Shown here piece after piece: positions 22,630 through 43,185 of a stretch of 64,000 nucleotides of DNA. The position numbers and the translations under genes are program-made. Source of the stretch: an uncultured bacterium (GTDB lineage: Bacteria > Omnitrophota > Omnitrophia > Omnitrophales > Aquincolibacteriaceae); contig CAYLPP010000003.1 in assembly GCA_964385615.1 (NCBI GenBank), forward strand, positions 11,288 to 75,287. Reading direction: 5' to 3'. How positions within the stretch are numbered: position 1 is the stretch's first letter; each line of letters begins with the position of its first letter. Under the pieces are notes generated by a model. It saw nothing but the letters and a program-made list of their open reading frames with translations, was not told the origin of the DNA and did not search any database.

Positions 22630-22632
22630 TAA

Positions 22633-22878
22633 TCAACCTCCCGAAACCGGCGGCAATAAAACCAAGGTGTCATTCTCGTTTAAGATGCGATCATCAGCCG
22701 CCCATTCTTCATTGACCGCCTTGTTAAGGGCAAGTCCTCGTAGTTTTTCCGGTCCTGCTTGCCGGCGCAACACTTCCTCTACTTCCCCGACCGATATCTT
22801 TTCTGAGACATTGAGATCCTGACTATCACAACCAAAAATGTCGCGCAATTGAGCAAAGTATAAAACTTTGATTCTCAT
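22633..22878 (-). CDS. moaD: molybdopterin synthase sulfur carrier MoaD
   Basis: 81 aa ending in GG. Confidence 0.75.
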   Translation of the reverse strand: MRIKVLYFAQLRDIFGCDSQDLNVSEKISVGEVEEVLRRQAGPEKLRGLALNKAVNEEWAADDRILNENDTLVLLPPVSGG

Positions 22879-25722: not shown

Positions 25723-25723
25723 T

Positions 25724-26722
25724 TTATCCCCCTATTTTCCGGATCGCCGGGCCTGCGCCACGCACGGTTTCTTCAGAAACGTCAAAAGGTTTATTGCGGA
25801 AAGCATTGCCTGCCGGTTTAATCCTTACCGCTTCGCGAATAGCTGTCTCAATGGCTTCATCTGGTGCATTCTCGCGCAAAAGTTGTTTGATCGGAACTTG
25901 GACATCTGAAAAAAGACAGGGCCGAATATTGCCGTCCGCGGTCAAACGGATACGCGAGCACTGATCGCAAAATGATTCTGTAAGCGAACCGATAAATCCC
26001 ACTCTTCCTTTACCAGAAAGCAAGCGAAAGGTTTGAGCGGGCGCATCGTCCCGCGGAATTTCTTCGAGTTCAAAGTGTTCCTGGACAATACTCCGGATTT
26101 TAGCAATCGGAAAAACAAGATCCGGCCGCCAGGCCTCGCCGCAAAGCGGCATAAATTCAAGAAATCTCACATCAAGCGGCCAATCTTTAGCAAGACCCAC
26201 AAACTCAAGAATCTCATCGCGCGTGAGGCCACGAAGTGCAACCATATTCAGTTTTACAGGAAATCCTATTTTGAGTGCGAGAAACACAGCCTGCATGACC
26301 TCTCGAAAAGCATTAACCAAAGTCACTTCATGGAAACGTTTTTCATTCATGCTGTCGAGACTAATATTAATGCGGTCAAGACCCGCTTCTTTTAAAGATT
26401 CAAGCATCGGAGCAAGACGGCTAGCATTTGTTGTAATGGAAACGTCTTTTGTGCCTGCGCTTTTTAAGGATTGAATGATCTCCGCGATATCTTCTCGAAG
26501 AAGCGGTTCTCCACCCGTGAGGCGGACCTTTTCTATTCCAAGTGAGTTTGCGATACGGACGAAGCGAACGATTTCATGCCGCGTTAAATAATGAGAAGGC
26601 GGTAGAATGGGAATAGACGAAGTCGTGCAGTAAGTGCAACGAAAATTACAAAGTTCGGTAAGCGATATGCGCAAAGAACGCACCCGCCTGCCGAAAGAAT
26701 CGAACAATCTTTCGGGTTTCAT
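25724..26722 (-). CDS. moaA: GTP 3',8-cyclase MoaA (radical SAM)
   Basis: LTELCNFRCTYC radical-SAM motif and a C-terminal second-cluster Cys motif. The start is MKPERL at 26722 with a GGAG ribosome-binding site. Confidence 0.85.
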   Translation of the reverse strand: MKPERLFDSFGRRVRSLRISLTELCNFRCTYCTTSSIPILPPSHYLTRHEIVRFVRIANSLGIEKVRLTGGEPLLREDIAEIIQSLKSAGTKDVSITTNASRLAPMLESLKEAGLDRINISLDSMNEKRFHEVTLVNAFREVMQAVFLALKIGFPVKLNMVALRGLTRDEILEFVGLAKDWPLDVRFLEFMPLCGEAWRPDLVFPIAKIRSIVQEHFELEEIPRDDAPAQTFRLLSGKGRVGFIGSLTESFCDQCSRIRLTADGNIRPCLFSDVQVPIKQLLRENAPDEAIETAIREAVRIKPAGNAFRNKPFDVSEETVRGAGPAIRKIGG

Positions 26723-26730
26723 GGATCTCC

Positions 26731-26880
26731 TTGGCAATTCATCCCTCAATTTAAGGGAATCGGCTGGCTGCACCGTTTCCGGTGAAGCCCCGTTCTGGGA
26801 GCCATAGCGTGCATGCTTTAGGCTATCAGAATCGGAGAATTCAAAATTAATATTGAAATTTATTATAAGTTAATTTTTTC
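26731..26880 (-). ncRNA. candidate Moco (molybdenum cofactor) riboswitch in the moaA leader
   Basis: About 150-nt leader upstream of the Moco operon. On the minus strand it carries GGGCTTCACCG-GAAA-CGGTGCAGCC, a 10-bp stem with one mismatch capped by a GNRA tetraloop, and a duplicated CCGATTC element. No consensus check was possible. Confidence 0.3.
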
Positions 26881-30605: not shown

Positions 30606-31649
30606 TCAGGGGTGGACTAAACAGCCTTTACACGGCGTAGCATCACCTTTTGCGACATAAATATCATGGCGGGGTTCTCCATCGACTTGTAAATAGCCGA
30701 CAGCTCCTTTTTCGATTCGGAAAATTGCATGGTCTACCAAAGTGTAAGTTCCCGGCACTTCTAATTGAAATTCAACAGCTGTAGCGCCGCCTGACGGCAC
30801 GAGGGTGGTTTGAATGCTATGCGCGGGAGGATCAACAAGATCTCCTTCTCGATAAACACTATCAAAAATTTCGCCGATCACATGAAACGATGAAATAAGG
30901 TTCGGCCCTGCATTGCCAAAATAAATCCGGATGCGTTCACCGGTCTTGGCTTTAAGCGCTCCATCTCCAGTTAGCGAATTCATACGGCCGTTAAACACTA
31001 CGAACTTCGGATGCTCTTTAAGTCCTTCTTCATGGGAAAAATCCAAAACATCCTGCCCTTGCGCTGGTTCTTTTGCATAGATTTCGCTTTGCAGAACATA
31101 AAACTCACGATCCACTTTAGGAAGACCTTTTTCGGGCTCAACCAAAATTAATCCATACATTCCATTAGCAATGTGGTCCATGACAGGCGGCGCAGCACAG
31201 TGATAAATGAAAAGGCCGGGATGAAGCAATTTGAACCAAGCCATTCCTTCCATATCGGTAGTTGCGGTAGTCACAGGTGCGCCGCCGCCCGGACCTGTGA
31301 CTGCATGAAAATCCACATTATGCGGCATACCGCTCTTATCTCTATTGGTTAATTCCACCTGAAGCGTATCCCCTACTCTTGCGCGGATAAATGGACCTGG
31401 TACATGCCCATTAAAGGTCCAAAATTTATATTTGGTGCCGCCATTAATCGGTTTAATTTCTGAAGTCGCGTCTAAATGAACGCGAACAATAGCCGGCTTC
31501 TTTCGTGCAATTGGAGGAGGAACTTCCGGCGCAAAAGTAAGGATCGCATCTTCCCTAAGAGGTGCGTGGGAAGCTCTCGAATCTGAGGGCATAAAAATAA
31601 AATTGAACAAAACGATTGAAACAATGGCAACTGCTTTATTTTTTGTCAT
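30606..31649 (-). CDS. nirK: copper-containing nitrite reductase NirK
   Basis: HNVDFHAVTG and YHCAAPPVMDHIANGM type-1/type-2 Cu ligand blocks, with a signal peptide from M at 31649. Confidence 0.8.
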   Translation of the reverse strand: MTKNKAVAIVSIVLFNFIFMPSDSRASHAPLREDAILTFAPEVPPPIARKKPAIVRVHLDATSEIKPINGGTKYKFWTFNGHVPGPFIRARVGDTLQVELTNRDKSGMPHNVDFHAVTGPGGGAPVTTATTDMEGMAWFKLLHPGLFIYHCAAPPVMDHIANGMYGLILVEPEKGLPKVDREFYVLQSEIYAKEPAQGQDVLDFSHEEGLKEHPKFVVFNGRMNSLTGDGALKAKTGERIRIYFGNAGPNLISSFHVIGEIFDSVYREGDLVDPPAHSIQTTLVPSGGATAVEFQLEVPGTYTLVDHAIFRIEKGAVGYLQVDGEPRHDIYVAKGDATPCKGCLVHP

Positions 31650-31681
31650 TATATTTTTCTTGTGATTCCATATCAGCATTT

Positions 31682-33016
31682 TCAATTTTGCCGAGGGGAT
31701 TTACCGGATTTCAAATCCGCAACTCTTTTTTTGGCTTCCTCATGGCACCGCTCATACTCTTCCGCATCAATAGTTCTAAATAAGGGAGCCGAAACGTGGA
31801 AGAACCAGCAAGCGGCAGCGGCCAGCCAAAAGAGAGCTGAAACAGCTAAAAACGAAAAGTAAAAAGATGGGAAAAAAACTGAAACGACTCTGAGGACAAG
31901 CGTCGCACCCAGGGCAACCGCAATGGCGCTAAGCGGCCAGGCGTTTTTCTTTAAAGCAGACGACATTCCTCCATGGCTAAAGATCACCATAATCGAAACT
32001 GCAAAGGTCATGAGCGCATAGCCTCCGATAAAAATGACATGCAGCATGGCCGTACGGAAAGAAGGAAAAAACGCAAGCAGCCAATGGCCTAAAAAAACCA
32101 TCCAAAAAGAGGCCCAAAGCAACCGCACAAAAGGATCTTGAACAAGAGGTTTGGGATTGATCGTCCGCGTTGGAATATAAATCGCGCTTACAATAAATGC
32201 CCGCAAGAAGTAAGCTAATTTTGAAAAATCTAATCCTTCTAAAATAAAGCTAAAAAGCAATAGCCCGCCAAGAAACAAATAAGTGAAGACTTTTTTGACG
32301 CGAATGCGCTTCTGGTCCTTTTGATCTCCTACGATAAACTCCGGCTTATAAACACCCATGAGCCTGGGACCAAGGAACGCTCCTACTCCGAGCACGAGTG
32401 ACAAAAGAAACCCCTGGTCCATAAATAATTTTCCTATTTTCAAAAATACGGGCGTCGAAATTACTTTGTGAGTCTCGCGCAAAACCATAAGGGTTCCCGC
32501 AATACCCTGCGCGAGAGCAATCGGAATCCAAATAAACTCAACTGGCGGTTGAACAGAATGGTCTTTTCTCTTAAATCTTTTGAAAGCAAAAATTGCGAGA
32601 GAAATCATCCAGCCCAAAAAACACAATCTCCCCAGCGTCCAATGATTCGAGAGATAAAAAATAGGAATTAAGCCTATCCAGACCAAAAAAATTAAAAGCT
32701 CCACAGCAGATGCTGGAGGAGCTGAAGCAAAGCGAGGCATTGCAGTCAAAAGAAAACCGAGGACAAAAGAACCCATATAGACTTGAATCTGGATCGAGGC
32801 ATGGAAAAGAGCGGAATAATGCGGAATCCACCCCATTGCATAAAAAAACCAGTGGCTAATCCCGAGGACTCCGCCAAGAACCGCGAGAGGAAAAAAAATC
32901 CGGTAAGGTTCTTCTGCGATCCGTTTAAGAATACCGAAACTTTTATTTTGCAATTTTTTTAAAACCGCCTTGGACAAGATAATGGAGCATGCCTGCAAAA
33001 GTAACCGTCCATACAA
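31682..33016 (-). CDS. nnrS: NnrS family heme-copper membrane protein
   Basis: EEPYRIFFPLAVL...HWFFYA N-terminal signature and 12 TM helices. It is a paralog of 53016-54326. Confidence 0.65.
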   Translation of the reverse strand: MYGRLLLQACSIILSKAVLKKLQNKSFGILKRIAEEPYRIFFPLAVLGGVLGISHWFFYAMGWIPHYSALFHASIQIQVYMGSFVLGFLLTAMPRFASAPPASAVELLIFLVWIGLIPIFYLSNHWTLGRLCFLGWMISLAIFAFKRFKRKDHSVQPPVEFIWIPIALAQGIAGTLMVLRETHKVISTPVFLKIGKLFMDQGFLLSLVLGVGAFLGPRLMGVYKPEFIVGDQKDQKRIRVKKVFTYLFLGGLLLFSFILEGLDFSKLAYFLRAFIVSAIYIPTRTINPKPLVQDPFVRLLWASFWMVFLGHWLLAFFPSFRTAMLHVIFIGGYALMTFAVSIMVIFSHGGMSSALKKNAWPLSAIAVALGATLVLRVVSVFFPSFYFSFLAVSALFWLAAAACWFFHVSAPLFRTIDAEEYERCHEEAKKRVADLKSGKSPRQN

Positions 33017-33983
33017 AAATCGGAAGATAAACGAAATAACGCGGAATGAACATGAGGAAATCGAGCTGGAAAACTTCGGCGAGCTTGTAGGTGCAGGTCA
33101 CATACATTCCGAGCGGAAAAACAATGCCCCAATATTGCGGATCATAAGTAAGCGGTTCTTTTTTATAGCCATGCCGCCAGAAACCTAAAATGAAAAGCGT
33201 AGGAATCCACCAAGTGCATGCGGACCAGAAAAAAAGCGTAAATCCTTTTAAGAAAGGTTCAAGCTGTTGCAGAAAATTCCAGTGGCCGGAATTTTCTACC
33301 AGCCTTACTCCGGCAAGCGTGGTAATTGCAACGGCTCCCATGTTGATCCAATAAGGCGGCGTTAGTGCTTTTGCTTCCACATTCACAAACATAAGGCGGT
33401 AAAAAATAATTGAAATAATAAGCAGATAAAGCATGCTTCCTAACAAGTACAGGCATAGACACAGAAAAAGGACAGGAGCAGCGCTCACCGAAAGAACCGT
33501 TTTTGTAAGCAAAGCTCCAAGAACGGAAAGAGATTGAGTGGCTACAATCGCCAAAAGCCAGGCTCCATTAATTCCCGTTTCAAGAGTGGGTTTGGGCGAA
33601 CGCACTGTGGCAGCCGTAAAAAAGACATACATTACAATAAACCAAAGCGCGAGGCTTATTTGCCATAACACTAAAGCAACTTTGGCGGCAGAAGCCAAGA
33701 GCAAAAATTGAACGCCAAGAATACAGGAGCCGGCAACAAGTGTAAAAAATCCCGGACCTCGGGCATGATCCGTTAAATCGCGGAAGAGACGTTGAGGGAA
33801 AAGGGTCAGCCTCAAAATCGTTAAAACAGCGAGAATGAGATAATTGACCACATTAATTTTAAAAAGTAGATAGGCAATAAAATTAATTTTTAACAGAAAA
33901 GTGGCTATGGAAACAATGCCAGTAGCCATCACTAAAGCAAAATAACCGGGGAAAAGATTTTCAATAAATTTGGGCTTAGTCAA
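32943..33983 (-). CDS. TDT (TehA/SLAC1/Mae1) family anion transporter
   Basis: Ten-TM protein of about 346 aa consistent with the TDT family (recalled). Confidence 0.45.
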   Translation of the reverse strand: MTKPKFIENLFPGYFALVMATGIVSIATFLLKINFIAYLLFKINVVNYLILAVLTILRLTLFPQRLFRDLTDHARGPGFFTLVAGSCILGVQFLLLASAAKVALVLWQISLALWFIVMYVFFTAATVRSPKPTLETGINGAWLLAIVATQSLSVLGALLTKTVLSVSAAPVLFLCLCLYLLGSMLYLLIISIIFYRLMFVNVEAKALTPPYWINMGAVAITTLAGVRLVENSGHWNFLQQLEPFLKGFTLFFWSACTWWIPTLFILGFWRHGYKKEPLTYDPQYWGIVFPLGMYVTCTYKLAEVFQLDFLMFIPRYFVYLPIFVWTVTFAGMLHYLVQGGFKKIAK

Positions 33984-33990
33984 AGGGATT

Positions 33991-34239
33991 TTACCTCGAG
34001 TCTTTCTCGCTTGAAGTTACATTTAATGCCGTCGTGAAAGCCATAAAACCACAGCATAGAAGTGCAATACCGCTTAAGATTATTGCGCCTATCAGGTGGG
34101 ATGTTTTCCCTTCCAGATAGGATTCCATCGCTGAAAATAAAATCCATATTTGAGTGAAAATGGCCCCCAAACTCAGAATGAGACAGACATTTTCAATCAT
34201 CTGAGCGTTTTCGTTGTACCTATCTCTAAATTTCATCAA
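33991..34239 (-). CDS. small membrane protein, hypothetical
   Basis: 82 aa with two TM helices, in an operon with the Rieske gene. Confidence 0.35.
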   Translation of the reverse strand: MMKFRDRYNENAQMIENVCLILSLGAIFTQIWILFSAMESYLEGKTSHLIGAIILSGIALLCCGFMAFTTALNVTSSEKDSR

Positions 34240-34781
34240 TCCCCAATTTGTCCTTCGATTCCAGCAAAGAAAACACCTTCCTTTCGGACATCAAGTTTGA
34301 TGCGAGGAAGCGGCCGTTCAGGAGGCCCATAAAGCACATCGCCTGTTTTCACATTAAAAGCACCGTGGTGGCAAGGGCATACGAGTTTCGATTCGCTTTT
34401 TTTCCAAATCACCGGGCATTGCAAATGAGTGCATTTTTGAGAATATGCCACGTATTCATTTTCAGAAAGACGCACCAAGATCACTGGCCCTTTGTCTTCG
34501 GGCAGACTAAAAACGTACGAGCCGCCGACTTCAATATCTTCCGAGCCTAAAATACGGAATTCTTTGATCGGATGGATGCGATGCCACAAACTTTTTATGA
34601 AAACTCCAATCGTCCCGGTGAAAAGGCCTAACGAGACAAGGAAGAGAAAACGGATAAAATCTCTTCGTGCGATATGCGTATCCTGAGCGACATCAACTGG
34701 AAAATCATCTGCCCACTTCGGATGATTTTTTTGCTTTATATCGTTTGATGCATTTTTTTCATCGCCCATTAAATCACCCAT
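34236..34781 (-). CDS. Rieske [2Fe-2S] protein, membrane-anchored
   Basis: CTHLQCPV...CPCHHGAF (CxH...CxxH) plus an RRDFIRFL Tat-like/TM anchor. Confidence 0.8.
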
Positions 34782-35392
34782 GGATCAGATTCTCCCAAAT
34801 CGTTGTGACTTATAAAGTCCAAAACATCGAGAGAAATTTCCGAATCTTCTTCTGCGGTCATGATGTAAACCTTGGTTGTGATCTTTTGGCGGCCAAACCA
34901 GAATTGATTCGTCGGTTTATTTTTGCGCGTCTTTTCAATTTCGGAACGCGGCCCGAAATAAAGCGCCTGCGAAGGACATACGGTTGCGCACATGGGCTTT
35001 TGTCCGATTGATGTGCGGTCATAACACATGTCGCATTTCAACATTTGCGCGGATTCCTCATATATATGAGGAACTCCAAAAGGACAAGCGACCTGGCAAT
35101 TGGAGCAGCCAATACAGCGAGGATTTAAAGAGGACTGTACGACACCGTCTTCCGTACGTTTGATTGCATCAGCGGGACATACAGCCGCACAAGACGGAAG
35201 ATCGCAATGCATGCAAATAGTAGGCGCTGTCTTTACGGATTGCGACCGGTCAAAGGTATCCAAATGAATCATCGGAACTCCGCGATGAGTCGCGCATTCC
35301 GCACAAGCCGCCATGCAGGCTTTACAACCGATACAGCGCTGTGGATCTACAAAAAAATCCATTTCTTCGTGGAGCGGATCACGAATGGGCAT
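34769..35392 (-). CDS. 4x[4Fe-4S] ferredoxin subunit (DmsB/NrfC/HybA-like)
   Basis: Four CxxCxxCxxxCP-type motifs. Confidence 0.8.
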
Positions 35393-37565
35393 TTTCTACC
35401 TTCTCGATTTTTACAGCACTAAATTTAAATTCGGGAATCTTTGAAAGCGGGTCTAGCGCCCTTTGAGTCAACCGGTTGGCTGATTTCTCGCCCGGCCAAT
35501 GATAAGGAATGAAAATAGTATCAGGCCGGATGGTCTTAACGACTTTTGCTTTTAGCGTGATGCTTCCTCTTCGTGAAGTGATCTTCACAAGCTCGCTTTC
35601 CCGAATCTTATATTTTTGAGCAAGCTGCGGATGCAATTCGACATAGGGTTCCGGACATTGCTCTGTCAGAAAGCCAATACGACGGGTCTGTGTTCCAGAT
35701 AAATACTGGAAAATCACACGGCCGGTTGTGAGGCATATCGGGTATTCTTCATTGATCTCATCTGCGGAAGGCCGGTATTCCACAGGATTGAAACGGGCCT
35801 TCCCATCGGGATGAGCAAACTTGCCGTTTTCAAATAACCGCGGTGTCCCAGGATGATCGAGTGTGGGACAGGGCCAAAAAATCCCCATATTCTTTTCAAT
35901 TTTTTCATAAGTAATTCCATAATAATTAACGGGACTGCCATTTGAAGCAACGCGCAGTTCATTGAAAATGTCTTCCGCGCATGAATAATTGAAATATTTC
36001 TTTTTATCAAGTCTCTCCGCTAAATCTAAAAAAATATGCCAATCGATTTTCGCTTCTCCCGGCGCTTTAACCGCCTGACGGATTCTGACGACTCTTCCCT
36101 CCGCAGTGGTGGCCGTACCTTCGTCTTCTTCGTGCAAAGAACCGGGAAGAATAATGTCTGCGTATTGAGCGGTTTCACTCATGAAGAAATCAATAGCGAC
36201 ATAAAATTCAAGCTTCTTAAGCGCTTCTTCGGTAAATTGAGTATCGGGAAGGCTTACAAGCGGATTGAAGCATATCGAAAGTAATCCTTTAATTTCTCCG
36301 GCATGAATGGCATTCATGATTTCCTGCGCGGACAAGCCCTTGCCTGGCAGGTCTTTTTCATCAATGCCCCAAATATCCGCGATATATTTTCGGTGTTCAG
36401 GATTGGTAATATCGCGATTTCCCGGAAGCTGATCGCATTTATGGCCGTGTTCTCGTCCGCCTTGGCCGTTGCCTTGTCCTGTAATCGTTCCATAACCACA
36501 GCCCGGCTTTCCGATCCGCCCACTTGCAAGCACAAGATTAATACAGGATAGAACGTTATCCACGCCCTTCGTGTGATGCTCAATGCCACGGGCATGAAGC
36601 AACATGCTACGCTTTGCTTCTCCCCACCATTCTGCTGCAATCCGAATATTTTTTGCTGGCACTCCCGTTATCTTCTCGCATTTTTCAGGCGTATAAGAGG
36701 AAACAGCTTTTTTTACTTCTTCAAAACCTACGGTGTGATTACGAATAAATTCCTCATCCACTTTTCCATTCTGGATCATCAGATTGAGCATCGTATTAAA
36801 GAGATGCGCATCCGTTCCAGGACGGACAGGAAGAATTAAATCAGCAGTGCGGGCAATCGGGGTAATGCGAGGATCTACAATAATGAGTTTTGCGCCTCGG
36901 TCCCGCGCGCGCCATATGTAATCTGTCGTGATCGGAGAGCATTCCGAAACGTTCGTTCCTGCGCATAAAATCAAATCCGTTTCCAGAATATCTGCCCAGG
37001 AATTTGCGGCGCGGTCAACGCCAAATGCCTTTTTATTGCCGGTGCCGGCAGAAACCATGCAAAGCCGGCCGTTATAATCGAGATTCTTGGTTTGCAATGC
37101 GACTCGCGCCCACTTACCGATTAAGTAAGACTTTTCATTCGTAAGCGAAACACCCGATAAAACTGCGAAACTGTCTTTGCCATATTGCTGTTGGATTTTT
37201 TTAATTGCGGTAATGACCCGATCATAAGCGTTATCCCAGCTTATGCGCTCATAGCCAATGCCCGGCTTATTTTCTAAAGGATAAAGCAGACGATCCGGAT
37301 GATTGCCCTGCATGTAACGCTTCACGCCTTTAGGGCATAACTTCCCTTCATTAAATGGGAAATCTTCCCAGGGATCAAAGCCAATGACCTGATTGTTTTT
37401 TACTTTGAGTTCAATCCCGCATCCCTGTCCACAAAAGCAACAATGAGTTTTAACACGAGCATCCGGCTCTTCTCCCGCGCTATCCCAGCCTCCAGGCGGC
37501 TCAAAATTGAGATGCGGACCGAACTGCTCAAAAATCTTTTCTTTTGAGATAGGTAAATTAGCCAT
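35379..37565 (-). CDS. molybdopterin oxidoreductase catalytic subunit, Nas/Nap/NarB-type (nitrate reductase-like), cytoplasmic
   Basis: N-terminal [10 protein letters not shown]...KLCPKG [4Fe-4S] site. The [10 protein letters not shown] block has the CM.SA-type Mo-ligand Cys context of Nap/Nas enzymes. No Tat signal. 728 aa. Confidence 0.7.
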
Positions 37566-38646
37566 GATGCGTTTCCTGTTTCATGTGTTCACGGTCAAAC
37601 TGTCCAGCAAGATCTCGGTGCTGAATCCACATTAAAAGCCGTCTCCGGCACAAAGGACATAAATCCTGCACACTTGGAGATTCCTTCGATTGATACTGAA
37701 AACCGATTTCCGCAAGCGACTCTTTAACATCCTTCGCTTGAATCGTGCTAGTAAAAGGTGCAGAGCATTTGGCGCAGGCAACCGTTTCACCCAATTTCTT
37801 TTGCTGAATATAAACCGACGCACCAAGCTGAGAGCCTCTTTGAAAAATATGAAAAAATTTTCCAAAGGGTAAATAAACTAAGAAAATAACAACCGTAAAA
37901 CAGTGAACCGTAGACAGAACCCGGTAATGCTGGCCTCCGAGAAATCGATTGCTAAAGGTGAGAAACAATCCCGTAATGGCTACCGCGAAGAGAATAAGAA
38001 GCGGAAGCATATCATGAATAAAGTTTTGATTCGCGACATTATCCGGATGCGTGATACGCCGTGTAAAGGCCATCACAGTTCCAAGAATAACCAGAACTGA
38101 AGATAAGTTGAGGGCGTTGAAGAAGAAAAAGCCAATCAGATCGTCAGGATGAAATTGAATCTGTGGGAAGCCAAATGCATAAACTTGGTAAAGTTCTGGA
38201 TGATGGGGAACCGTTTCAAAATGAAGCCAGCCGAAAACAAGAGGAAATGTCACAGCAAATGCCAGCATCGTTCCCCATGCCAGAGTGAAATGCATCAGCC
38301 AGCGGTAGAAACCTCGGTTTTGAATAAAACGCTGTAAAATGACTTGTTGGAAGAACGTTTTGAAGACCGCGGCAAGCTGTTCCAACACATGCGGTGCAAA
38401 TAAAAGCGTAGCGCTTCGCTTCCATAATCTGCGCGTGGGAGGCCGGTCTAACCAAACTGTGTAGCGATAAACAACTCCCATGAGAGCAAATAGCGTCGCG
38501 AATAAATAAGGAACGAGCGCCGCGTCAAAATAAAGCAACCTTCGAGATCCAACAAGAACCAAGACGCTTAGAAGTCCGCTCGCTAAAATTCCGTTGAGAA
38601 GTCCCCTCTTATGAAGTTTTACGCTCTGTAATCTCATGCTTCCCAA
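37558..38646 (-). CDS. NarI/DsrM/HdrE-like di-heme cytochrome b membrane subunit with a C-terminal Cys-rich tail
   Basis: Five or more TM helices, a [13 protein letters not shown] block resembling the NarI-family PFSKL.H motif, and C-terminal CAKC...CPLC. Confidence 0.5.
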
Positions 38647-38652
38647 TATGCT

Positions 38653-39069
38653 TTAGGCCGCGGCAATATTCAAGCTTTTTTGATGCCGAACATGATGAGA
38701 ATGCGGCGGTAGTTTTTCTTTTAAATCGTCGGTGATTTGACTTTCTATAGCCTGAGCTTCGAAATCCTCGAAGTCTTCATGGAATTTCTTTTTTACACCC
38801 ATCTTCGTTAATTCATAATGGAATGTGGGAGCAAGCCCTTGTTGCTGCAAACACGCCTTAACGCAGGCAAGCGGACAGCCATCAATCCCAATAATGACTT
38901 CAGCGTTTTTTGCTTTTTGCACGAGCGGGGATACGCTGCCTCCCACTCCCGCGATACAGGACATTTCAGCAATTCCTCTGCGGTCCAGTCCAATAGCAAT
39001 GCGATTCGCCATTTGCGCCGCAGAAGAACATCCCGAACAAGAATAGACAAGAACTTTGCTATTTTTCAT
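38653..39069 (-). CDS. DGC domain metal-binding protein
   Basis: CSGCSS and IGIDGCPLAC blocks typical of the DGC domain. The start ATG overlaps the upstream stop as ATGA. Confidence 0.55.
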   Translation of the reverse strand: MKNSKVLVYSCSGCSSAAQMANRIAIGLDRRGIAEMSCIAGVGGSVSPLVQKAKNAEVIIGIDGCPLACVKACLQQQGLAPTFHYELTKMGVKKKFHEDFEDFEAQAIESQITDDLKEKLPPHSHHVRHQKSLNIAAA

Positions 39070-39548
39070 CTGTGATGTGCGCCGCAACAAGTCTCATACC
39101 TCTCCGCCGGTATGGTTTCCATCGCAAGAAAAATCTGTGCGGCTTCCCTTTCTGTAATCAATTGATCGATCGCAGGGTAAAGAACCTGCTCTTCTTTATG
39201 ATTATGGGCCTCTAAGATTTCAACGAGCATTTCTTCATCGTCATCACTAGATGGATCGGCTTTTCTGACCTTTTCATGAATACGGTCGAGCAATGCCCCA
39301 ATGCGGCGGTGTTCTTCACGCATCACAAATGTAGGACCGCCTTGGCTGGTGCCGGACTTTTTTTCAAAAAGAGGAAAGAGAACGTCCTCTTCCCAAACAA
39401 TATGCCGTTTGAGCCCTTTAAAGAAGACCTTAAAATGCTGTTTTGCTTCGGGGAAGGATTCTCTTTTAAGCTCTTGAAAACTTGCGAAGGCCGCATCAAG
39501 ACGATTATGATCTGCTTCAAAATATTGAGTAACGATATTTTTTACCAT
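39066..39548 (-). CDS. hemerythrin HHE cation-binding domain protein (NO-stress-type di-iron protein)
   Basis: H..EE..LFP repeats. It is about 70% identical to 50833-51315 and directly downstream of an Rrf2 gene. Confidence 0.7.
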   Translation of the reverse strand: MVKNIVTQYFEADHNRLDAAFASFQELKRESFPEAKQHFKVFFKGLKRHIVWEEDVLFPLFEKKSGTSQGGPTFVMREEHRRIGALLDRIHEKVRKADPSSDDDEEMLVEILEAHNHKEEQVLYPAIDQLITEREAAQIFLAMETIPAERYETCCGAHHR

Positions 39549-39551
39549 TGT

Positions 39552-39986
39552 TTAATCCCCTTTATGAATTTTATGCAGAGAATGCTTACCGTTCTTTCTT
39601 AAATCCGACAGAGTTGTGGTTTTCAGAAGAGTTATGTACCGGCCCGAAATGTCAGCCCATTTATGATGCAATGTGCATGGATTGCTGTCCGAGCAAGAAG
39701 CTCTGCCCATAATACAGCGCTCCCACTTTCCCACCTGCTCAACAGGCTCGATAATGTCATATAAAGTGACTTTTTCAGGCTCCTTTACTAATCGAAAACC
39801 GCCGCCTAATCCCTTTTGAGATTCCACAATGCCCGCTCTGCAAAGAGACTGAAGCAGCTTACTCAGATAATTTGCCGGCGCCTTTAATTGCTTGGCAATC
39901 TGTATCGCTCCAGCGTATTTGCTTTCCGGTAGCTCGGAGAGTGCCATCAAAGCCCGAATCGCAAGCGTTCCTGTTTTACTAATCAT
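39552..39986 (-). CDS. Rrf2 family transcriptional regulator (three Cys)
   Basis: GLGGGFRL block plus CIMGRASCSDSNPC. Confidence 0.75.
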   Translation of the reverse strand: MISKTGTLAIRALMALSELPESKYAGAIQIAKQLKAPANYLSKLLQSLCRAGIVESQKGLGGGFRLVKEPEKVTLYDIIEPVEQVGKWERCIMGRASCSDSNPCTLHHKWADISGRYITLLKTTTLSDLRKNGKHSLHKIHKGD

Positions 39987-40119: not shown

Positions 40120-40647
40120 TTATATTTTGGATAAGAATCCAAGAGAATCGGCTTTTAAGAGGTGGGACTCCACTAACTCATCAAGCATTGTTCGAAATCG
40201 AGCTAACTGGCTGGATTCATCGCCTAAGCGAACAATTTCTAGTAGCCGCCGCAAATGAAACTGTTTTACGATTTCCGCATTCTGATTTTCTTTGAGAAAG
40301 TTTCGAACAGACTCGGGCAGTTCTAACGTCTTAAGAACACGGGCAATGTAAGACCAATCTTCTCCTGTTAATTCTGATAAGGCTCGGACGCTTTTAACTC
40401 CAGTAGTTTCTCGAAGCTTACGGTAATAGGCAGCTTTCTTTAAGGGGAAGTTTTCTATTCTTTTGAGGTACGTCTGGTGCTTTTCCCAGATCCTCTTGTC
40501 GATAGAGTGAACGTCGGTCAAATCTTCCGGGCGCTCTCCAAAAACTATCTGTTGTCGGCGATTGTTGAAGATGCTATAAAACGCTTGGGAAAATTTAAAA
40601 ACACGGGTCTGCGCCTTATTCACGCAGAGTAACCGCGCGGGCCCCAT
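40120..40647 (-). CDS. ParB-like HTH domain protein, copy B (track ORF extends to 40815)
   Basis: Shared blocks with copies A and C. The candidate start GAGGAACAAATGGGGCCC (ATG at 40647) lies inside the proximal tandem repeat. The longer ORF's N-terminus is encoded by repeats and hairpins. Confidence 0.55.
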   Translation of the reverse strand: MGPARLLCVNKAQTRVFKFSQAFYSIFNNRRQQIVFGERPEDLTDVHSIDKRIWEKHQTYLKRIENFPLKKAAYYRKLRETTGVKSVRALSELTGEDWSYIARVLKTLELPESVRNFLKENQNAEIVKQFHLRRLLEIVRLGDESSQLARFRTMLDELVESHLLKADSLGFLSKI

Positions 40648-40735
40648 TTGTTCCTCGCCTGCGAATACGCGAGATTTTAAGCCACTAGAAATATTCGCGT
40701 GGAGTAACTGCGAGGACCCCATTTGTTCTGACGAA
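40621..40735. repeat. two tandem ~65-bp repeats at the 5' end of copy B
   Basis: Units near 40621-40665 and 40694-40735 share ...GAGTAAC.GCG.GG.CCCCATTTGTTC... with the copy A repeats. Confidence 0.75.
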
Positions 40736-40755
40736 CCGAAGGAGTAAAACTCCAC

Positions 40756-40794
40756 GTTTTTGATACGCACTGCTATAGAGTGCGTATCAAAAAC
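40756..40794. promoter_or_regulatory. 16-bp perfect inverted repeat between copy B and the divergent XRE gene (candidate operator)
   Basis: GTTTTTGATACGCACT-GCTATAG-AGTGCGTATCAAAAAC. Confidence 0.45.
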
Positions 40795-40976
40795 ACGGTT
40801 CGTTGAGGGTAACATGAGGACCCGTCAAAAGGGACTAGAACCATAGTAGCAGCTATCTCCGCTTTTCCTCTCCTTTTAGTTAGTCGCCGACAAGTTCGCA
40901 TAAAGTTTCTTAACCTCCGAGCATACCCATGTGACGTCAGCCGGTCGGAGGAAAAGAACGGATATTTGGACTCATA

Positions 40977-41823: not shown

Positions 41824-43185
41824 TTATTTCTGTACGGGATCAACGATCAGGCGTGCCGCGCGGTCGTAACGAATATAATCCCAGAGCCAATTAATAAAAG
41901 CAACGACACGATTACGAAAACCGACCAGTGACATTAAATGAAACAAAACCCATATTAGCCAAGCTGCTGCGCCGTGAGATTTCAAAAATTTTAATTCTAC
42001 AACCGCCCGGTTGCGTCCGACTGTGGCCATAACGCCATAATCCTTATAAACAAAGGGTTTCATTTCTTGTTTCATCAACAGCCTCTTGAAATTTTTGGCT
42101 AACATTGTCGCCTGCTGAATCGCCACAGGAGCCAACATCGGATGACCTTTAGGAAACTGCTCGGAAACCATGGCTGCCGTATCCCCAATTGCAAAAATAT
42201 CTTCACAGCCTTCTACTCTGTTAAATCGATCAACCTTAAGCCTGTTGGAAGAAGTAAACTGTTTTGAATCCAGTCCCTGAATTTCGTTTCCCATAACGCC
42301 GGCAGCCCAGATCACAATTTTCGAATACAGTTGCTTCCCATTTGAGAGCTTCAATATTTCCCCATCATAAGATTCAACCTTCACATTCAACTCTATATTG
42401 ACCTTTAATTTCTTCAAAGATAGCTCCGCAAAACGCGACGCCTGCTCCGACAACGTTTTGAACAAACGGTCTTGCATATCGATAATATAAATTTGCATTT
42501 GATCAATGTTCAGCTCAGGGTAATCTCTGGGGAAGATATCTTTTTTTAATTCCCCGAAAGCTCCTGCTAATTCGACTCCCGTAGGCCCGCCCCCGACAAT
42601 GACAATGTTCATCAATCTTTCTTTTCTCTTTTTATTATCCGTCAGGAGAGCCTGCTCAAACCTTTTCAAAATCAGATTTTTCAGGTTCACAGCCTCGGGA
42701 ACACCTTTCATATCAATGGCATTGCGCTTCATATCCTCAAGCCCAAAAAAATTCGTGCGGGCGCCGGAAGCAATCACTACATAATCGAATGAAATAATAC
42801 CAATCGATGTTTCCAGGAAGTGCTGAACAGAATTAATCTTAAATACTTCCGCCATCCGAAAGAAAAGATTGTCCTGCTTGTGGAAAATCTCGCGGAACGG
42901 AGAGGCAATTGACGGCGGTTCCATGGCAGAGGTCGCCACCTGATATAAAAGCGGTTGGAAAGTATGATAATTATTCTTGTCAATCAGAACAACCTGAACG
43001 TCTGTGTTTCTTAACCTCTTAGCCAGCTCAAGGCCTCCAAATCCCCCGCCAATAATAACGACTCTTGGTTTGCCGATGTCCGGAAGATTGGGCGATATCT
43101 CTTCGGGACAGCTGTCGAATTCTTCACAACGGTTCTTAAGGGACGGCATCAAATCGTCTTGTTTTTTCATGATAAGCTCTGTCAC
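41824..43185 (-). CDS. ndh: type II NADH:quinone oxidoreductase (NDH-2)
   Basis: Two GxGxxG Rossmann motifs (VVIIGGGFGG, IVIVGGGPTG) and a C-terminal membrane-anchor helix. Confidence 0.75.
   Translation of the reverse strand: MTELIMKKQDDLMPSLKNRCEEFDSCPEEISPNLPDIGKPRVVIIGGGFGGLELAKRLRNTDVQVVLIDKNNYHTFQPLLYQVATSAMEPPSIASPFREIFHKQDNLFFRMAEVFKINSVQHFLETSIGIISFDYVVIASGARTNFFGLEDMKRNAIDMKGVPEAVNLKNLILKRFEQALLTDNKKRKERLMNIVIVGGGPTGVELAGAFGELKKDIFPRDYPELNIDQMQIYIIDMQDRLFKTLSEQASRFAELSLKKLKVNIELNVKVESYDGEILKLSNGKQLYSKIVIWAAGVMGNEIQGLDSKQFTSSNRLKVDRFNRVEGCEDIFAIGDTAAMVSEQFPKGHPMLAPVAIQQATMLAKNFKRLLMKQEMKPFVYKDYGVMATVGRNRAVVELKFLKSHGAAAWLIWVLFHLMSLVGFRNRVVAFINWLWDYIRYDRAARLIVDPVQK

What the first reader, a model, noticed from the sequence alone, without database searches (positions are those of the whole stretch)
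34236..39090. Nas/Nap-type molybdoenzyme wired to a Rieske protein, a 4x[4Fe-4S] ferredoxin and a NarI-like cytochrome b: an unusual membrane-linked cytoplasmic nitrate-reductase-like complex
The catalytic subunit (35379-37565) has the N-terminal Cx2Cx3C...C [4Fe-4S] site and an [10 protein letters not shown] block typical of the Cys-ligated Nap/Nas/NarB nitrate reductase lineage. It is not NarG-sized and has no Tat signal, so it should be cytoplasmic. It is nevertheless co-transcribed with a membrane-anchored Rieske protein (RRDFIRFL anchor, CxH...CxxH), a DmsB-like tetra-cluster ferredoxin, a NarI/DsrM-like multi-haem b membrane protein with an extra CxxC...CxxC tail, and a DGC metal-binding protein. 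The Rrf2 and hemerythrin genes lie upstream, and TDT, nnrS and nirK lie downstream. Canonical Nas enzymes take electrons from NADH or ferredoxin. Canonical membrane nitrate reductases are NarGHI or NapAB. A Rieske/cyt b input module on a Nas-type enzyme is not a textbook architecture. It could represent a quinol-driven cytoplasmic nitrate reductase (or chlorate/other oxyanion reductase) feeding nirK and qNor. It lies only 9 kb from a complete Moco operon.
Basis: partly seen in the sequence, partly recalled or inferred. Interest (0 to 1): 0.7.

Follow-up and report, generated by a model that had tools for sequence, protein, structure and literature searches.

The report
Uncharacterised membrane-bound Nas-type nitrate reductase cassette
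This Omnitrophota operon encodes a five-gene, membrane-anchored nitrate reductase built from an "assimilatory-type" catalytic subunit, and the same cassette occurs in at least eight bacterial phyla, where I found no study of it and where it is annotated as assimilatory or generic.

Summary
On the minus strand, 33991-38646 encodes five translationally coupled genes:
- a NarI-fold membrane protein;
- a 728-aa NasC-like molybdoenzyme (Cx2Cx3Cx27C site, Cys-Met Mo-ligand motif, no signal peptide);
- a four-cluster ferredoxin;
- a bc-type Rieske protein with a twin-arginine signal-anchor;

The cassette is conserved, with 63-86% catalytic-subunit identity, in Omnitrophota, Armatimonadota, Acidobacteriota, Bacteroidota, Actinomycetota, Pseudomonadota and Deinococcota. 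Bacillota carry it at 48%.

An anion transporter gene (NarK-type MFS, TDT or HPP) lies within 8 kb in 53 of 64 loci. NirB lies within 8 kb in none.

The catalytic subunit groups with NirB-linked NasC enzymes (100% bootstrap), not with formate dehydrogenase, NapA or AioA.

My best reading is a NarGHI-like, quinol-linked dissimilatory nitrate reductase. Its active site would face the cytoplasm, with an added periplasmic Rieske centre. Here it would feed NirK and qNor.

The orientation is inferred, not shown. Export of the whole complex on the Rieske Tat signal, as in arsenite oxidase, remains a live rival.

The DGC gene and the CxxC tail are not core features. No paper describing this system turned up in ten full-text searches.

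The parts
37558..38646 (-). NarI-fold membrane subunit (362 aa, six predicted helices, cytoplasmic C-terminal domain of about 95 aa)
35379..37565 (-). Catalytic molybdopterin subunit, NasC-like (728 aa), no signal peptide
   Evidence: Pfam PF04879, PF00384 and PF01568. NCBIfam NasC 859 bits, below the 1100 cut-off. Groups with NirB-linked NasC at 100% bootstrap. Keeps 5 of 6 Nas/Nap signature columns.
37335..37442 (-). [4Fe-4S] (FS0) binding motif C42-x2-C45-x3-C49-x27-C77 of the catalytic subunit
37044..37073 (-). Mo-ligand block [10 protein letters not shown] (Cys169-Met170), as in Nas and Nap; formate dehydrogenases have Cys/Sec-His here
34769..35392 (-). Four-cluster ferredoxin subunit (207 aa, DmsB/FdnH/NarH class), no signal peptide and no TM helix
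   Evidence: Pfam Fer4_11. PDB best hit FdnH 1kqf_B. Four Cys groups in 69 of 69 orthologues.
34236..34781 (-). Rieske [2Fe-2S] subunit (181 aa) with an N-terminal Tat signal-anchor
   Evidence: Pfam Rieske. PDB best hits are the Thermus bc Rieske, b6f Rieske and AioB. 66 of 66 orthologues have CxHxxC and CxCH.
34644..34670 (-). Twin-arginine motif ARRDFIRFL, followed by the hydrophobic anchor at 34596-34649
   Evidence: A [STA]RR[DEQK][FL] motif occurs in 64 of 66 orthologues, with basic residues after the h-region.
34368..34433 (-). Rieske cluster boxes CTHLQC...CPCH, the bc1/b6f/Aio type with the disulfide cysteines
33991..34239 (-). DUF6755 small two-helix membrane protein, the fifth core gene
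   Evidence: Pfam DUF6755 at E 2.3e-5, below the cut-off. PGAP annotates the Deinococcus counterpart as a DUF6755 family protein. A homologous small hydrophobic ORF follows the Rieske gene in about 63 of 65 loci, with a conserved QxW motif and no conserved His.
32943..33983 (-). TDT/SLAC1-family anion transporter, an accessory gene; probably moves nitrate or nitrite (inferred)
   Evidence: Pfam SLAC1. A TDT homologue lies within 8 kb of the cassette in 13 other loci. 53 of 64 loci have a TDT, NarK-type MFS or HPP gene within 8 kb.
31682..33016 (-). NnrS (haem-copper membrane protein of NO-responsive regulons), same transcription direction
   Evidence: Pfam NnrS. NnrS lies near the cassette in 9 other loci.
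30606..31685 (-). Copper nitrite reductase NirK, the last gene of the co-directional run
   Evidence: TIGR02376 at 314.5 bits, above the 296.3 cut-off.
38653..39986 (-). Upstream lineage-specific genes: DGC-domain protein (38653-39090), hemerythrin (39066-39548) and an Rrf2 regulator (39552-39986)
   Evidence: Pfam. DGC was absent from the other loci. An Rrf2 gene is present in 21 loci and a hemerythrin gene in about 10.

Best explanation
Genes 33991-38646 encode one membrane complex that reduces nitrate to nitrite.

**Proposed layout and electron path.**
- The NasC-like molybdoenzyme and the four-cluster ferredoxin sit on the cytoplasmic face of a NarI-fold haem-b protein, as NarG and NarH sit on NarI.
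- Quinol is oxidised at the outer face.
- Electrons cross the membrane through the haem(s).
- They then pass along the ferredoxin clusters to the [4Fe-4S] cluster and the Mo-bisPGD cofactor, where nitrate is reduced.
- This layout would conserve energy as NarGHI does.

**The extra subunits.**
- The Rieske protein is inserted by the Tat pathway with its [2Fe-2S] domain outside, held by its signal-anchor beside the membrane subunit and the small DUF6755 protein.
- The Rieske domain either forms part of the outer quinol-oxidising site, where the second His of NarI's distal haem is missing, or it is an entry or exit point for periplasmic electron carriers.

**Substrate and product flow in this organism.**
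- The TDT transporter moves nitrate in and/or nitrite out.
- In other lineages a NarK-type or HPP transporter would do this.
- Nitrite is handed to periplasmic NirK, and NO is handed to qNor.

**What is shown and what is inferred.**
- Shown: gene content, motifs, fold, phylogenetic position, conservation and gene context.
- Inferred: that the five proteins form one complex, that quinol is the donor, which way the active site faces, and what the Rieske centre does.
For: **Catalytic subunit.**
- It falls in the nitrate-reductase lineage. It scores best against NasC (859 bits), ahead of Fdh-alpha (637), NapA (297) and AioA (173).
- It forms a 100%-bootstrap clade with NirB-linked NasC enzymes.
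- It has the Cys-Met ligand motif and keeps 5 of 6 Nas/Nap signature columns.

**Conservation of the cassette.**
- The cytb, MopB, Fer4 and Rieske genes co-occur in 54 of 61 loci of at least 12 kb.
- Those loci span seven phyla, and Bacillota also carry the cassette.
- A DUF6755-like gene follows the Rieske gene in about 63 of 65 loci.
- In the window the genes overlap by 4-14 nt.

**Membrane subunit.**
- It has the NarI fold and the NarI orientation.
- Both ligands of the cytoplasmic-side haem (H119, H266) and one distal ligand (H248) are invariant.
- The cytoplasmic C-terminal domain is conserved.
- From established knowledge, NarI-family proteins (NarI, DsrM, HdrE, TmcC, QmoC, EtfD) serve cytoplasmic Fe-S partners.

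**Signals and transporters.**
- Neither MopB nor Fer4 carries a signal peptide.
- 53 of 64 loci have a NarK-type MFS, TDT or HPP transporter gene within 8 kb. PGAP annotates the Deinococcus gene as a nitrate/nitrite transporter.

**Dissimilatory rather than assimilatory context.**
- 0 of 64 loci have NirB nearby.
- Neighbouring genes include Rrf2 (21 loci), NnrS (9) and CRP-family regulators (8).
- The window adds NirK, two NnrS genes, qNor, NDH-2 and Moco biosynthesis genes.

**Rieske subunit.** 64 of 66 orthologues have the Tat motif, all have the disulfide-type cluster boxes, and the c-region is basic.
Against: - There are no experimental data for any member of this family.
- The Tat-bearing Rieske subunit is just what a hitch-hiking periplasmic molybdoenzyme would need, as in AioBA.
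- In the Armatimonadota gene order, Fer4 stays next to Rieske and MopB stays next to cytb. That could mean Fer4 contacts Rieske directly, which a cytoplasmic Fer4 could not do.
- The fourth haem ligand is not conserved, so a complete two-haem wire across the membrane is not assured.
- The transporters could equally import nitrite made outside the cell.
- No subunit fusion that would fix the topology was found.
- My tree is a 24-sequence neighbour-joining tree, and monophyly of the cassette clade within the NasC group has only 31% support.
Confidence: 0.5

Rival explanations
1. Periplasmic orientation. The folded MopB-Fer4-Rieske trimer is exported by Tat on the Rieske signal-anchor, as AioA hitch-hikes on AioB. 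Nitrate is then reduced outside the cytoplasm. The membrane protein acts only as a quinol dehydrogenase that feeds the Rieske centre. Functionally this would be a Nap or pNar analogue.
For: - The Tat motif is conserved in 64 of 66 Rieske orthologues, which also have disulfide-type cluster boxes.
- The Rieske protein resembles AioB.
- The Nas clade is reported to be the closest relative of AioA, which has a Rieske partner (PMC7331816).
- Fer4 and Rieske stay adjacent in both gene orders.
- In this organism NirK is periplasmic, so no nitrite export would be needed.
- In haloarchaeal pNar, a Rieske and cytochrome b module is proposed to feed an outward-facing nitrate reductase (PMC7754194).
Against: - The invariant ligands of the cytoplasmic-side haem and the conserved cytoplasmic domain of the membrane subunit would have no job.
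- From established knowledge, NarI-family proteins are known with cytoplasmic Fe-S partners.
- Nitrate/nitrite transporter genes accompany 53 of 64 loci, which is typical of nar operons and not of nap operons.
- No MopB orthologue has acquired a Tat signal of its own.
Confidence: 0.25
2. An assimilatory nitrate reductase that draws electrons from the membrane rather than from NAD(P)H or ferredoxin. Nitrite would go to a nitrite reductase encoded elsewhere. The linkage to NirK in this window would be incidental.
For: - The closest characterised relatives are assimilatory NasC enzymes.
- Many hosts, such as Mucilaginibacter, Chitinophaga and Deinococcus, are aerobes not known as nitrate respirers (my own knowledge).
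- Heylen and Keltjens read the B. bataviensis trio as an alternative assimilatory system (PMC3475470).
- JGI annotates members as assimilatory.
Against: - 0 of 64 loci have NirB within 8 kb, whereas the classical NasC relatives sit next to nirB or nirBD.
- The neighbouring genes are of the NO and denitrification type: Rrf2, CRP-family regulators, NnrS, hemerythrin and NirK.
- A five-subunit membrane complex with a Rieske centre is elaborate for assimilation alone.
Confidence: 0.15
3. The substrate is not nitrate but another oxyanion such as chlorate, iodate, selenate or arsenite. Alternatively the complex runs oxidatively, like arsenite oxidase.
For: - It scores below the NasC curated cut-off (859 against 1100).
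- 28 columns are invariant in the cassette clade and differ from all reference enzymes, including H324, H330, H375 and C377.
- Both known Rieske-partnered MopB enzymes, Aio and Idr, act on other oxyanions (PMC10100899).
- TDT family members carry tellurite, sulfite and dicarboxylates (my own knowledge).
Against: - It has the Cys-Met ligand and 5 of 6 nitrate-reductase signature columns.
- Genes annotated as nitrate/nitrite transporters, and HPP genes, are adjacent.
- NirK, NnrS and qNor lie in the window.
- AioA-type features (a 3Fe-4S site and no Cys ligand) are absent.
Confidence: 0.07

Closest known systems
NarGHI respiratory nitrate reductase (E. coli 1Q16)
   Same: - A three-tier layout: a MopB catalytic subunit with an N-terminal FS0 cluster, a four-cluster ferredoxin and a NarI-fold membrane haem protein.
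- H248 and H266 align with NarI H187 and H205.
- The predicted topology is the same.
- Nitrate/nitrite transporter genes are linked.
   Different: - The catalytic subunit is a 728-aa Cys-ligated Nas-type enzyme, not a 1,200-aa Asp-ligated NarG (narG HMM 76 bits against a 1084 cut-off).
- The ferredoxin is of DmsB/FdnH size.
- The membrane subunit has an extra N-terminal helix, a periplasmic beta-sheet, a 95-aa cytoplasmic domain and only 3 of the 4 haem His residues.
- It has extra Rieske and DUF6755 subunits.
- No narJ gene is in the operon.
NasC-type assimilatory nitrate reductase (B. subtilis NasC with NasB; NirB-linked NasC of Paenibacillus, Skermanella and Mycobacterium)
   Same: - It is the nearest sequence relative (42-48% identity) and forms a 100%-bootstrap clade with it.
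- It has the same FS0 and Cys-Met motifs, a similar size and no signal peptide.
   Different: - Classical NasC is soluble, takes electrons from NAD(P)H through NasB or NirB (with a NirD-type Rieske ferredoxin in some), and sits next to nirB.
- This clade instead has a membrane subunit, a four-cluster ferredoxin and a Tat-anchored bc-type Rieske protein.
- It was not found beside nirB in any of 64 loci.
Arsenite oxidase AioBA and iodate reductase IdrBA
   Same: A signal-less MopB of the Nas/Nap/Fdh super-clade is paired with a small bc-type Rieske subunit that carries the Tat signal. The Rieske protein matches AioB at E 2e-10.
   Different: - AioA has a [3Fe-4S] site and no protein ligand to Mo (26% identity; arsenite_ox_L 173 bits against a 359 cut-off).
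- Aio and Idr have no four-cluster ferredoxin and no membrane haem subunit, and they are soluble in the periplasm.
Haloarchaeal pNar (NarGH with the NarB Rieske protein and NarC cytochrome b), and the Caldithrix abyssi nap cluster with Rieske and cytochrome b genes
   Same: A Rieske protein and a b-type cytochrome are encoded with a nitrate reductase and are proposed to link it to quinol.
   Different: - Those systems use bc-type cytochrome b, and catalytic subunits (NarG or NapA) that carry their own Tat signals and face outward.
- Here the cytochrome has the NarI fold and the catalytic subunit is Nas-type without a signal.
Tmc, Hmc and DsrMKJOP transmembrane redox complexes of sulfate reducers
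   Same: A NarI-like haem-b subunit connects a periplasmic redox subunit to a cytoplasmic Fe-S subunit. The membrane protein gives weak HMM hits to TmcC, DsrM and QmoC.
   Different: The periplasmic partner there is a multihaem cytochrome c and the cytoplasmic partner is a CCG-domain HdrD-like protein. Those complexes have no molybdoenzyme and no Rieske protein.

Membership tests
NasC/NasA assimilatory nitrate reductase | MopB with an N-terminal Cx2Cx3C...C [4Fe-4S] site and a Cys ligand to Mo (Cys-Met motif) | tested here: met
   C42, C45, C49 and C77; NGRLC169M170
NasC/NasA assimilatory nitrate reductase | Scores above the curated family cut-off (NCBIfam NF047855) | tested here: not met
   859 bits against a cut-off of 1100
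NasC/NasA assimilatory nitrate reductase | Linked to an assimilatory nitrite reductase or an NAD(P)H/ferredoxin donor (nirB/nirBD, nasB, nirA) | tested here: not met
   0 of 64 loci have a NirB homologue within 8 kb, whereas the classical relatives do. Only nirB was searched for, and whole genomes were not examined.
NarGHI | NarG-type catalytic subunit (about 1,200 aa, Asp ligand) | tested here: not met
   TIGR01580 75.9 bits against 1084; 728 aa; Cys ligand
NarGHI | NarI-type dihaem membrane subunit with four His ligands | tested here: inconclusive
NarGHI | Four-cluster NarH-type ferredoxin | tested here: inconclusive
   Four Cys groups are present, but the narH HMM gives 41.7 bits against 524. 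The best matches are HybA, DmsB and FdnH.
Nap (periplasmic nitrate reductase) | NapA with its own Tat signal, plus a NapB/NapC c-type cytochrome or NapGH | tested here: not met
   NapA HMMs give 287-297 bits against cut-offs above 900. MopB has no RR motif. No protein of the operon has a CxxCH motif.
Aio/Idr (Rieske-partnered MopB) | Small Rieske subunit carrying the Tat signal | tested here: met
Aio/Idr (Rieske-partnered MopB) | Catalytic subunit with a [3Fe-4S] site and no amino-acid ligand to Mo | tested here: not met
   It has four Cys in FS0 and a Cys ligand. arsenite_ox_L gives 172.7 bits against 359.
Rieske/cytochrome b (bc1, b6f) complexes | bc-type Rieske protein with disulfide-type cluster boxes and a Tat anchor | tested here: met
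   CTHLQC...CPCH. The best PDB hits are bc and b6f Rieske proteins.
Rieske/cytochrome b (bc1, b6f) complexes | bc-type cytochrome b with Qo and Qi sites | tested here: not met
   There is no Pfam hit. The fold is NarI/EtfD-like, not cytochrome b/b6.
This conserved five-gene cassette (unnamed) | cytb, MopB, Fer4, Rieske and DUF6755 genes together, with MopB at least about 48% identical to other members | tested here: met
Any of the above | Nitrate reductase activity, the electron donor and the sidedness of the active site | not testable with these tools
   This needs biochemistry, genetics or a multimer structure.

The most novel reading that the evidence does not exclude
The complex would be a Q-cycle-like, bifurcating quinol oxidase. 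At an outer site shared by the Rieske centre and the NarI-fold protein, one electron of quinol goes to the Rieske cluster and on to periplasmic acceptors, which here would be NirK through a carrier. The other electron is driven through haem b across the membrane to the cytoplasmic Nas-type nitrate reductase. That would couple two denitrification steps in one energy-conserving machine. It would also be a living intermediate between Nas enzymes and the Rieske-partnered Aio/Idr enzymes.
Probability: 0.1. Interest if true: 0.9.

Novelty: new variant of a known kind. Interest (0 to 1): 0.66.

Why it matters
**A further class of nitrate reductase.** If the reading is right, bacteria have a widespread class of membrane-bound nitrate reductase besides Nar, Nap and Nas. 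It would be assembled from a Nas-type catalytic subunit, a NarI-type anchor and a Rieske centre.

- Current pipelines call the catalytic subunit 'assimilatory nitrate reductase' or 'molybdopterin oxidoreductase family protein'.
- They call the haem subunit 'MFS transporter'.
- Metagenomic nitrogen-cycle budgets would therefore file these organisms under assimilation, or miss them. The groups affected are Omnitrophota, Armatimonadota, Holophagae, many Bacteroidota, Deinococcus and some Bacillota.

**A challenge to a published statement.** Wells et al. state that no member of the Nas/Aio/Nap/Fdh clade is associated with the canonical four-cluster electron-transfer subunit or membrane-anchor subunit (PMC7331816). 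This cassette appears to contradict that.

**A testable system.** The cassette occurs in cultured, genetically tractable hosts, so it can be used to ask how Rieske partners were recruited to molybdoenzymes.

Tried and rejected
1. **Formate dehydrogenase.** The best solved-structure matches are FdhF-type enzymes. I rejected this reading because no Nas structure appeared among the PDB hits to compete with them, the ligand motif is Cys-Met and not Cys/Sec-His, and the tree puts the protein with NasC.
2. **Natural fusions that would fix the topology.**
   - None occurs among the 80 loci.
   - None occurs among the top 120 Rieske homologues.
   - The longer entries among the Fer4 representatives that I read look like frameshifted or chimeric gene calls from high-GC contigs.
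   - An apparent cytb-MopB fusion in L007 was a bug in my script; a stop codon is present.
3. **DUF6755 as the missing haem ligand.** It has no conserved His.
4. **CxxC...CxxC tail as an essential redox centre.** Three of the four Cys are absent in Bacteroidota, Fimbriimonadaceae and some Omnitrophota.
5. **Promoter and terminator scan.** Counts were no higher than in shuffled sequence.
6. **Structure prediction with sequences taken from loci.** I repeated it with database homologues.
7. **Literature.** Ten full-text searches found no paper on this cassette. The only relevant items were the 2012 remark on B. bataviensis and the analogies with pNar and Caldithrix.
8. **First bootstrap script.** It timed out and I rewrote it.

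Full report
**1. What is in the sequence**

Between 39986 and 30606 the minus strand carries eleven co-directional ORFs. They are separated by gaps of at most 7 nt or overlap one another:

| Coordinates | Gene |
|---|---|
| 39552-39986 | Rrf2 regulator |
| 39066-39548 | hemerythrin |
| 38653-39090 | DGC-domain protein |
| 37558-38646 | 362-aa membrane protein |
| 35379-37565 | 728-aa molybdopterin oxidoreductase |
| 34769-35392 | 207-aa ferredoxin |
| 34236-34781 | 181-aa Rieske protein |
| 33991-34239 | 82-aa membrane protein |
| 32943-33983 | TDT/SLAC1 transporter |
| 31682-33016 | NnrS |
| 30606-31685 | NirK |

- NirK passes its curated cut-off (314.5 against 296.3 bits).
  - C42-x2-C45-x3-C49-x27-C77 and NGRLC169M in the molybdoenzyme;
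  - four complete Cys groups in the ferredoxin;
  - ARRDFIRFL, a hydrophobic stretch, and CTHLQC...CPCH in the Rieske protein;
  - CAKC...CPLC in the tail of the membrane protein.
- The wider window holds:
  - Moco biosynthesis genes at 21642-26773;
  - an NDH-2 gene at 41824-43185;
  - a second NnrS gene followed by a qNor gene at 52968-56600.
- Database names for the close homologues place the organism in Candidatus Omnitrophota.

**2. It is a conserved cassette, not a local accident**

- A scan of one genome per GTDB species found 572 relatives of the catalytic subunit. The 80 best are 65-93% identical.
- In 54 of the 61 loci of at least 12 kb, homologues of the membrane protein, the molybdoenzyme, the ferredoxin and the Rieske protein all lie within 8 kb.
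- Two gene orders dominate:
  - cytb-MopB-Fer4-Rieske, in 41 loci;
  - Fer4-Rieske...cytb-MopB, in 19 loci, mostly Armatimonadota.
- A small hydrophobic ORF homologous to the window's 82-aa protein follows the Rieske gene in about 63 of 65 loci. It has a conserved QxW motif.
- PGAP names the Deinococcus counterpart a 'DUF6755 family protein'. The window protein itself matches Pfam DUF6755 only weakly. The core is therefore five genes, and the finding's range misses the fifth.
- Hosts are:
  - Omnitrophota;
  - Armatimonadota (Fimbriimonadaceae, Chthonomonadales, Capsulimonas);
  - Acidobacteriota (cultured Geothrix species, Holophagaceae);
  - Bacteroidota (cultured Mucilaginibacter and Chitinophaga);
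  - Acidimicrobiia;
  - Hyphomicrobium;
  - Deinococcus, on megaplasmids at 62-63% identity;
  - Brevibacillus laterosporus, at 48% identity.
- The DGC gene was not found beside the cassette anywhere else. A hemerythrin gene was found in about ten loci and an Rrf2 gene in 21.

**3. The catalytic subunit**

- NCBIfam ranks NasC first, at 859 bits, which is below the 1100 cut-off. Fdh-alpha follows at 637 bits, haloarchaeal NasA at 377, NapA at 297, AioA at 173 and NarG at 76.
- Among solved structures the best matches are cytoplasmic formate dehydrogenases (521 bits), ahead of NapA (332 bits). No Nas structure appeared among the hits.
- I built a 24-sequence neighbour-joining tree (698 columns, 200 bootstraps). 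The annotated reference sequences came from plasmid records.
  - The cassette proteins and the NirB-linked NasC enzymes of Paenibacillus, Skermanella and Mycobacterium form a clade with 100% support.
  - That clade is separate from NasA/NapA, AioA and FdhF.
  - Monophyly of the cassette group inside that clade is weakly supported (31%).
- Identity to the window protein is as follows:

| Reference group | Identity |
|---|---|
| cassette members | 63-84% |
| classical NasC | 42-48% |
| FdhF | 32-37% |
| NapA | 29-31% |
| AioA | 26% |

- The ligand block reads RLCM in the cassette, R(F/L/H)CM in every Nas and Nap reference, CH or CQ in the formate dehydrogenases, and PAY in AioA.
- Six columns are invariant in the Nas and Nap references and absent from Fdh, FdnG and Aio. 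The cassette keeps five of them.

**4. The membrane subunit**

- Pfam finds nothing. NCBIfam gives weak hits to QmoC, TmcC, TcuB and DsrM.
- An AlphaFold2 model built on 36 homologues has a mean pLDDT of 87.6.
- A profile of 23 orthologues hits NarI in the PDB at E = 0.008. The alignment puts H248 and H266 on NarI H187 and H205, with the same 18-residue spacing and the PFxK/RLxH motif.
- The positive-inside rule and this alignment give the NarI orientation:
  - helices 3-6 correspond to NarI helices II-V;
  - the roughly 95-residue C-terminal domain is cytoplasmic;
  - the beta-sheet at residues 141-165 is periplasmic (inference).
- Three His residues are invariant across phyla: H119, H248 and H266.
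- By position they are both ligands of the cytoplasmic-side haem and one ligand of the outer haem (inferred).
- The counterpart of NarI H66 is missing. H142 could substitute in Omnitrophota, but other phyla have Q, R, N or Y there.
- Of the four tail cysteines only C291 is invariant.

**5. The Rieske and ferredoxin subunits**

- The closest solved relatives of the Rieske domain are the Thermus bc-complex Rieske protein, b6f Rieske proteins and AioB.
- All 66 orthologues have the CxHxxC and CxCH boxes. These include the two cysteines that form the disulfide in bc-type proteins.
- 64 of 66 orthologues have a [STA]RR[DEQK][FL] motif, for example SRREFARF, SRREFFKF and TRREFTKF. A Gly/Ala/Ser-rich hydrophobic stretch follows, and then basic residues.
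  - From established knowledge of Tat substrates, this is the pattern of a Tat signal-anchor with a Sec-avoidance c-region, as in bc1 Rieske proteins and AioB.
  - Brevibacillus has DRRGFMKTM.
- An unusual conserved N-tail, KWxxDFP, precedes the RR motif in 47 of 66 orthologues. On this topology it would stay in the cytoplasm.
- After the second cluster box the sequence is CPCHHGAF. It lacks the Ser and Tyr that raise the potential in bc1 Rieske proteins. From my own knowledge of those proteins, this suggests a moderate potential of the kind seen in menaquinol-linked systems.
- The ferredoxin has four Cys groups in 69 of 69 orthologues. It has no signal peptide and no TM helix.
- No protein of the operon has a CxxCH motif.

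**6. Gene context**

- Of 64 loci of at least 12 kb, 53 carry a homologue of a NarK-type MFS, a TDT/SLAC1 or an HPP transporter within 8 kb, often directly adjacent.
- In Deinococcus the cassette is followed by a gene that PGAP names 'nitrate/nitrite transporter'.
- HPP proteins are known nitrite transporters of cyanobacteria and chloroplasts (my own knowledge).
- No locus has a NirB homologue nearby. The classical NasC relatives sit next to nirB or nirBD.
- Recurrent neighbours are Rrf2 (21 loci), NnrS (9), CRP-family regulators (8) and hemerythrin (about 10). NirK occurs once outside the window.

**7. Most likely mechanism**

I read the five genes as one complex built like NarGHI. The details are in the Best explanation section. 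In short:
- MopB and Fer4 sit on the cytoplasmic face of a NarI-fold haem protein.
- Quinol is oxidised at the outer face.
- Electrons cross the membrane to reduce nitrate inside.
- A transporter supplies nitrate and removes nitrite.
- In this organism NirK and qNor take the pathway on to N2O, and NDH-2 supplies quinol.

The arguments for a cytoplasmic active site are indirect:
- the family habit of NarI-like proteins, which serve cytoplasmic Fe-S partners;
- the invariant ligands of the inner haem, and the conserved cytoplasmic domain;
- the absence of any signal peptide on MopB or Fer4 in any lineage;
- the linked transporters.

The Rieske domain should be outside. Two roles fit, and I cannot separate them:
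- it is part of the outer quinol site, standing in for or assisting a distal haem that lacks one ligand;
- it is a port to periplasmic carriers, as TmcA or DsrJ is for the NarI-like TmcC or DsrM.

**8. The main rival**

The main rival is that MopB-Fer4-Rieske is exported as a unit on the Rieske Tat signal, as AioA is exported with AioB.
- It explains the Tat motif and the persistent Fer4-Rieske adjacency.
- It suits a periplasmic NirK.
- It leaves the inner haem and the cytoplasmic domain without a function, and it makes the transporters less necessary.
- I put it at about 0.25, against 0.5 for the cytoplasmic model.
- I found no natural fusion that would decide between them, and the tools cannot model multimers.

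**9. Comparison with known systems and novelty**

- The complex works most like NarGHI. It is not a member of that family: NarG-type features were tested and not met.
- Its catalytic subunit is a relative of NasC, but it fails the curated cut-off and lacks the assimilatory gene context.
- It shares the Tat-Rieske partner with Aio and Idr, but not their active site.
- It shares the idea of a Rieske and cytochrome b feed with haloarchaeal pNar (PMC7754194) and with the Caldithrix nap cluster (PMC5317091). Its cytochrome, however, is NarI-type and not bc-type.
- The only earlier mention I found is one paragraph on Bacillus bataviensis. It notes a 729-aa nasC linked to an Fe-S protein and a Rieske protein, as a possible alternative assimilatory system (PMC3475470).
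- Reviews of the DMSO-reductase family state that the Nas/Aio/Nap/Fdh clade lacks the four-cluster and membrane-anchor partners (PMC7331816).
- Ten full-text searches gave nothing else. Subscription-only literature was not searchable, so prior description cannot be excluded.
- I rate it a new variant of a known kind. The modules are familiar, the combination is new, it is widespread, and it has not been studied experimentally.

**10. Verdict**

Nas-type, membrane-linked, unusual and probably dissimilatory all hold.
- DGC and the Cys tail are peripheral, and a fifth subunit was missed.
- Interest is 0.66.

Noticed in passing
window 52968-56600 (+): A second NnrS gene (52968-54326) is directly followed by a quinol-type nitric oxide reductase (54327-56600; NorB cytochrome-c-like domain plus COX1). 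With NirK, this gives the window a nitrate-to-N2O gene set but no nosZ.
   Followed up: partly
window 41824-43185 (-): A type II NADH dehydrogenase (Pyr_redox_2 plus NDH2_C) lies about 2 kb upstream of the operon. It is a plausible source of quinol.
   Followed up: no
window 21642-26773 (-): A Moco biosynthesis cluster (MobA, MoaE, MoeA, MoaC/MoaB, MoaA) has a TauE/SafE-family anion exporter gene (24074-24823) embedded in it.
   Followed up: no
L084 7889-9001 and L085 7774-8886 (Deinococcus megaplasmids); P0152, P0199, P0204, P0205: NCBI annotation names the NarI-fold haem subunit of this cassette 'MFS transporter'. JGI names it variously 'nitrate reductase gamma subunit', 'NNP family transporter' or 'cytochrome c553'. 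This looks like a systematic misannotation.
   Followed up: partly
L084 7699-7896, L085 7584-7781: In Deinococcus a 65-aa hypothetical ORF overlaps the start of the haem-subunit gene, in the position where the window has the DGC gene. It may be a further small subunit or a leader.
   Followed up: no
window 40752-40798 (-): A 20-bp-stem perfect palindrome with a 7-nt loop lies inside the 5' part of the unassigned ORF 40120-40815, just upstream of the operon's Rrf2 gene. It could be a terminator or an operator.
   Followed up: no
window 38653-39090 (-): The DGC-domain protein is encoded inside the operon here but was not found beside the cassette in any of the other loci examined, including Omnitrophota loci with 77-84% identical catalytic subunits.
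   Followed up: partly
window 35379-37565 (-), residues 1-41; Rieske residues 22-28 (34698-34718): Two conserved N-terminal tails have no known role: LPxSxExLxxQFGPxLNxxPPGGW before the Fe-S site of the catalytic subunit, and KWxxDFP before the Tat motif of the Rieske protein. They could be docking or chaperone-binding elements.
   Followed up: partly
window 56754-58604 (+) and 61567-62628 (-): A ClC-type chloride channel/exchanger homologue and an SBF-family (bile acid/arsenite-type) symporter lie near the qNor gene. They are further anion transporters in the same neighbourhood.
   Followed up: no
L021 1847-6718: One Fimbriimonadales locus carries, upstream of the cassette, a second and distant set of MopB (23-27% identity), Fer4 and Rieske homologues. 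This hints at a related but distinct Rieske-partnered molybdoenzyme.
   Followed up: no
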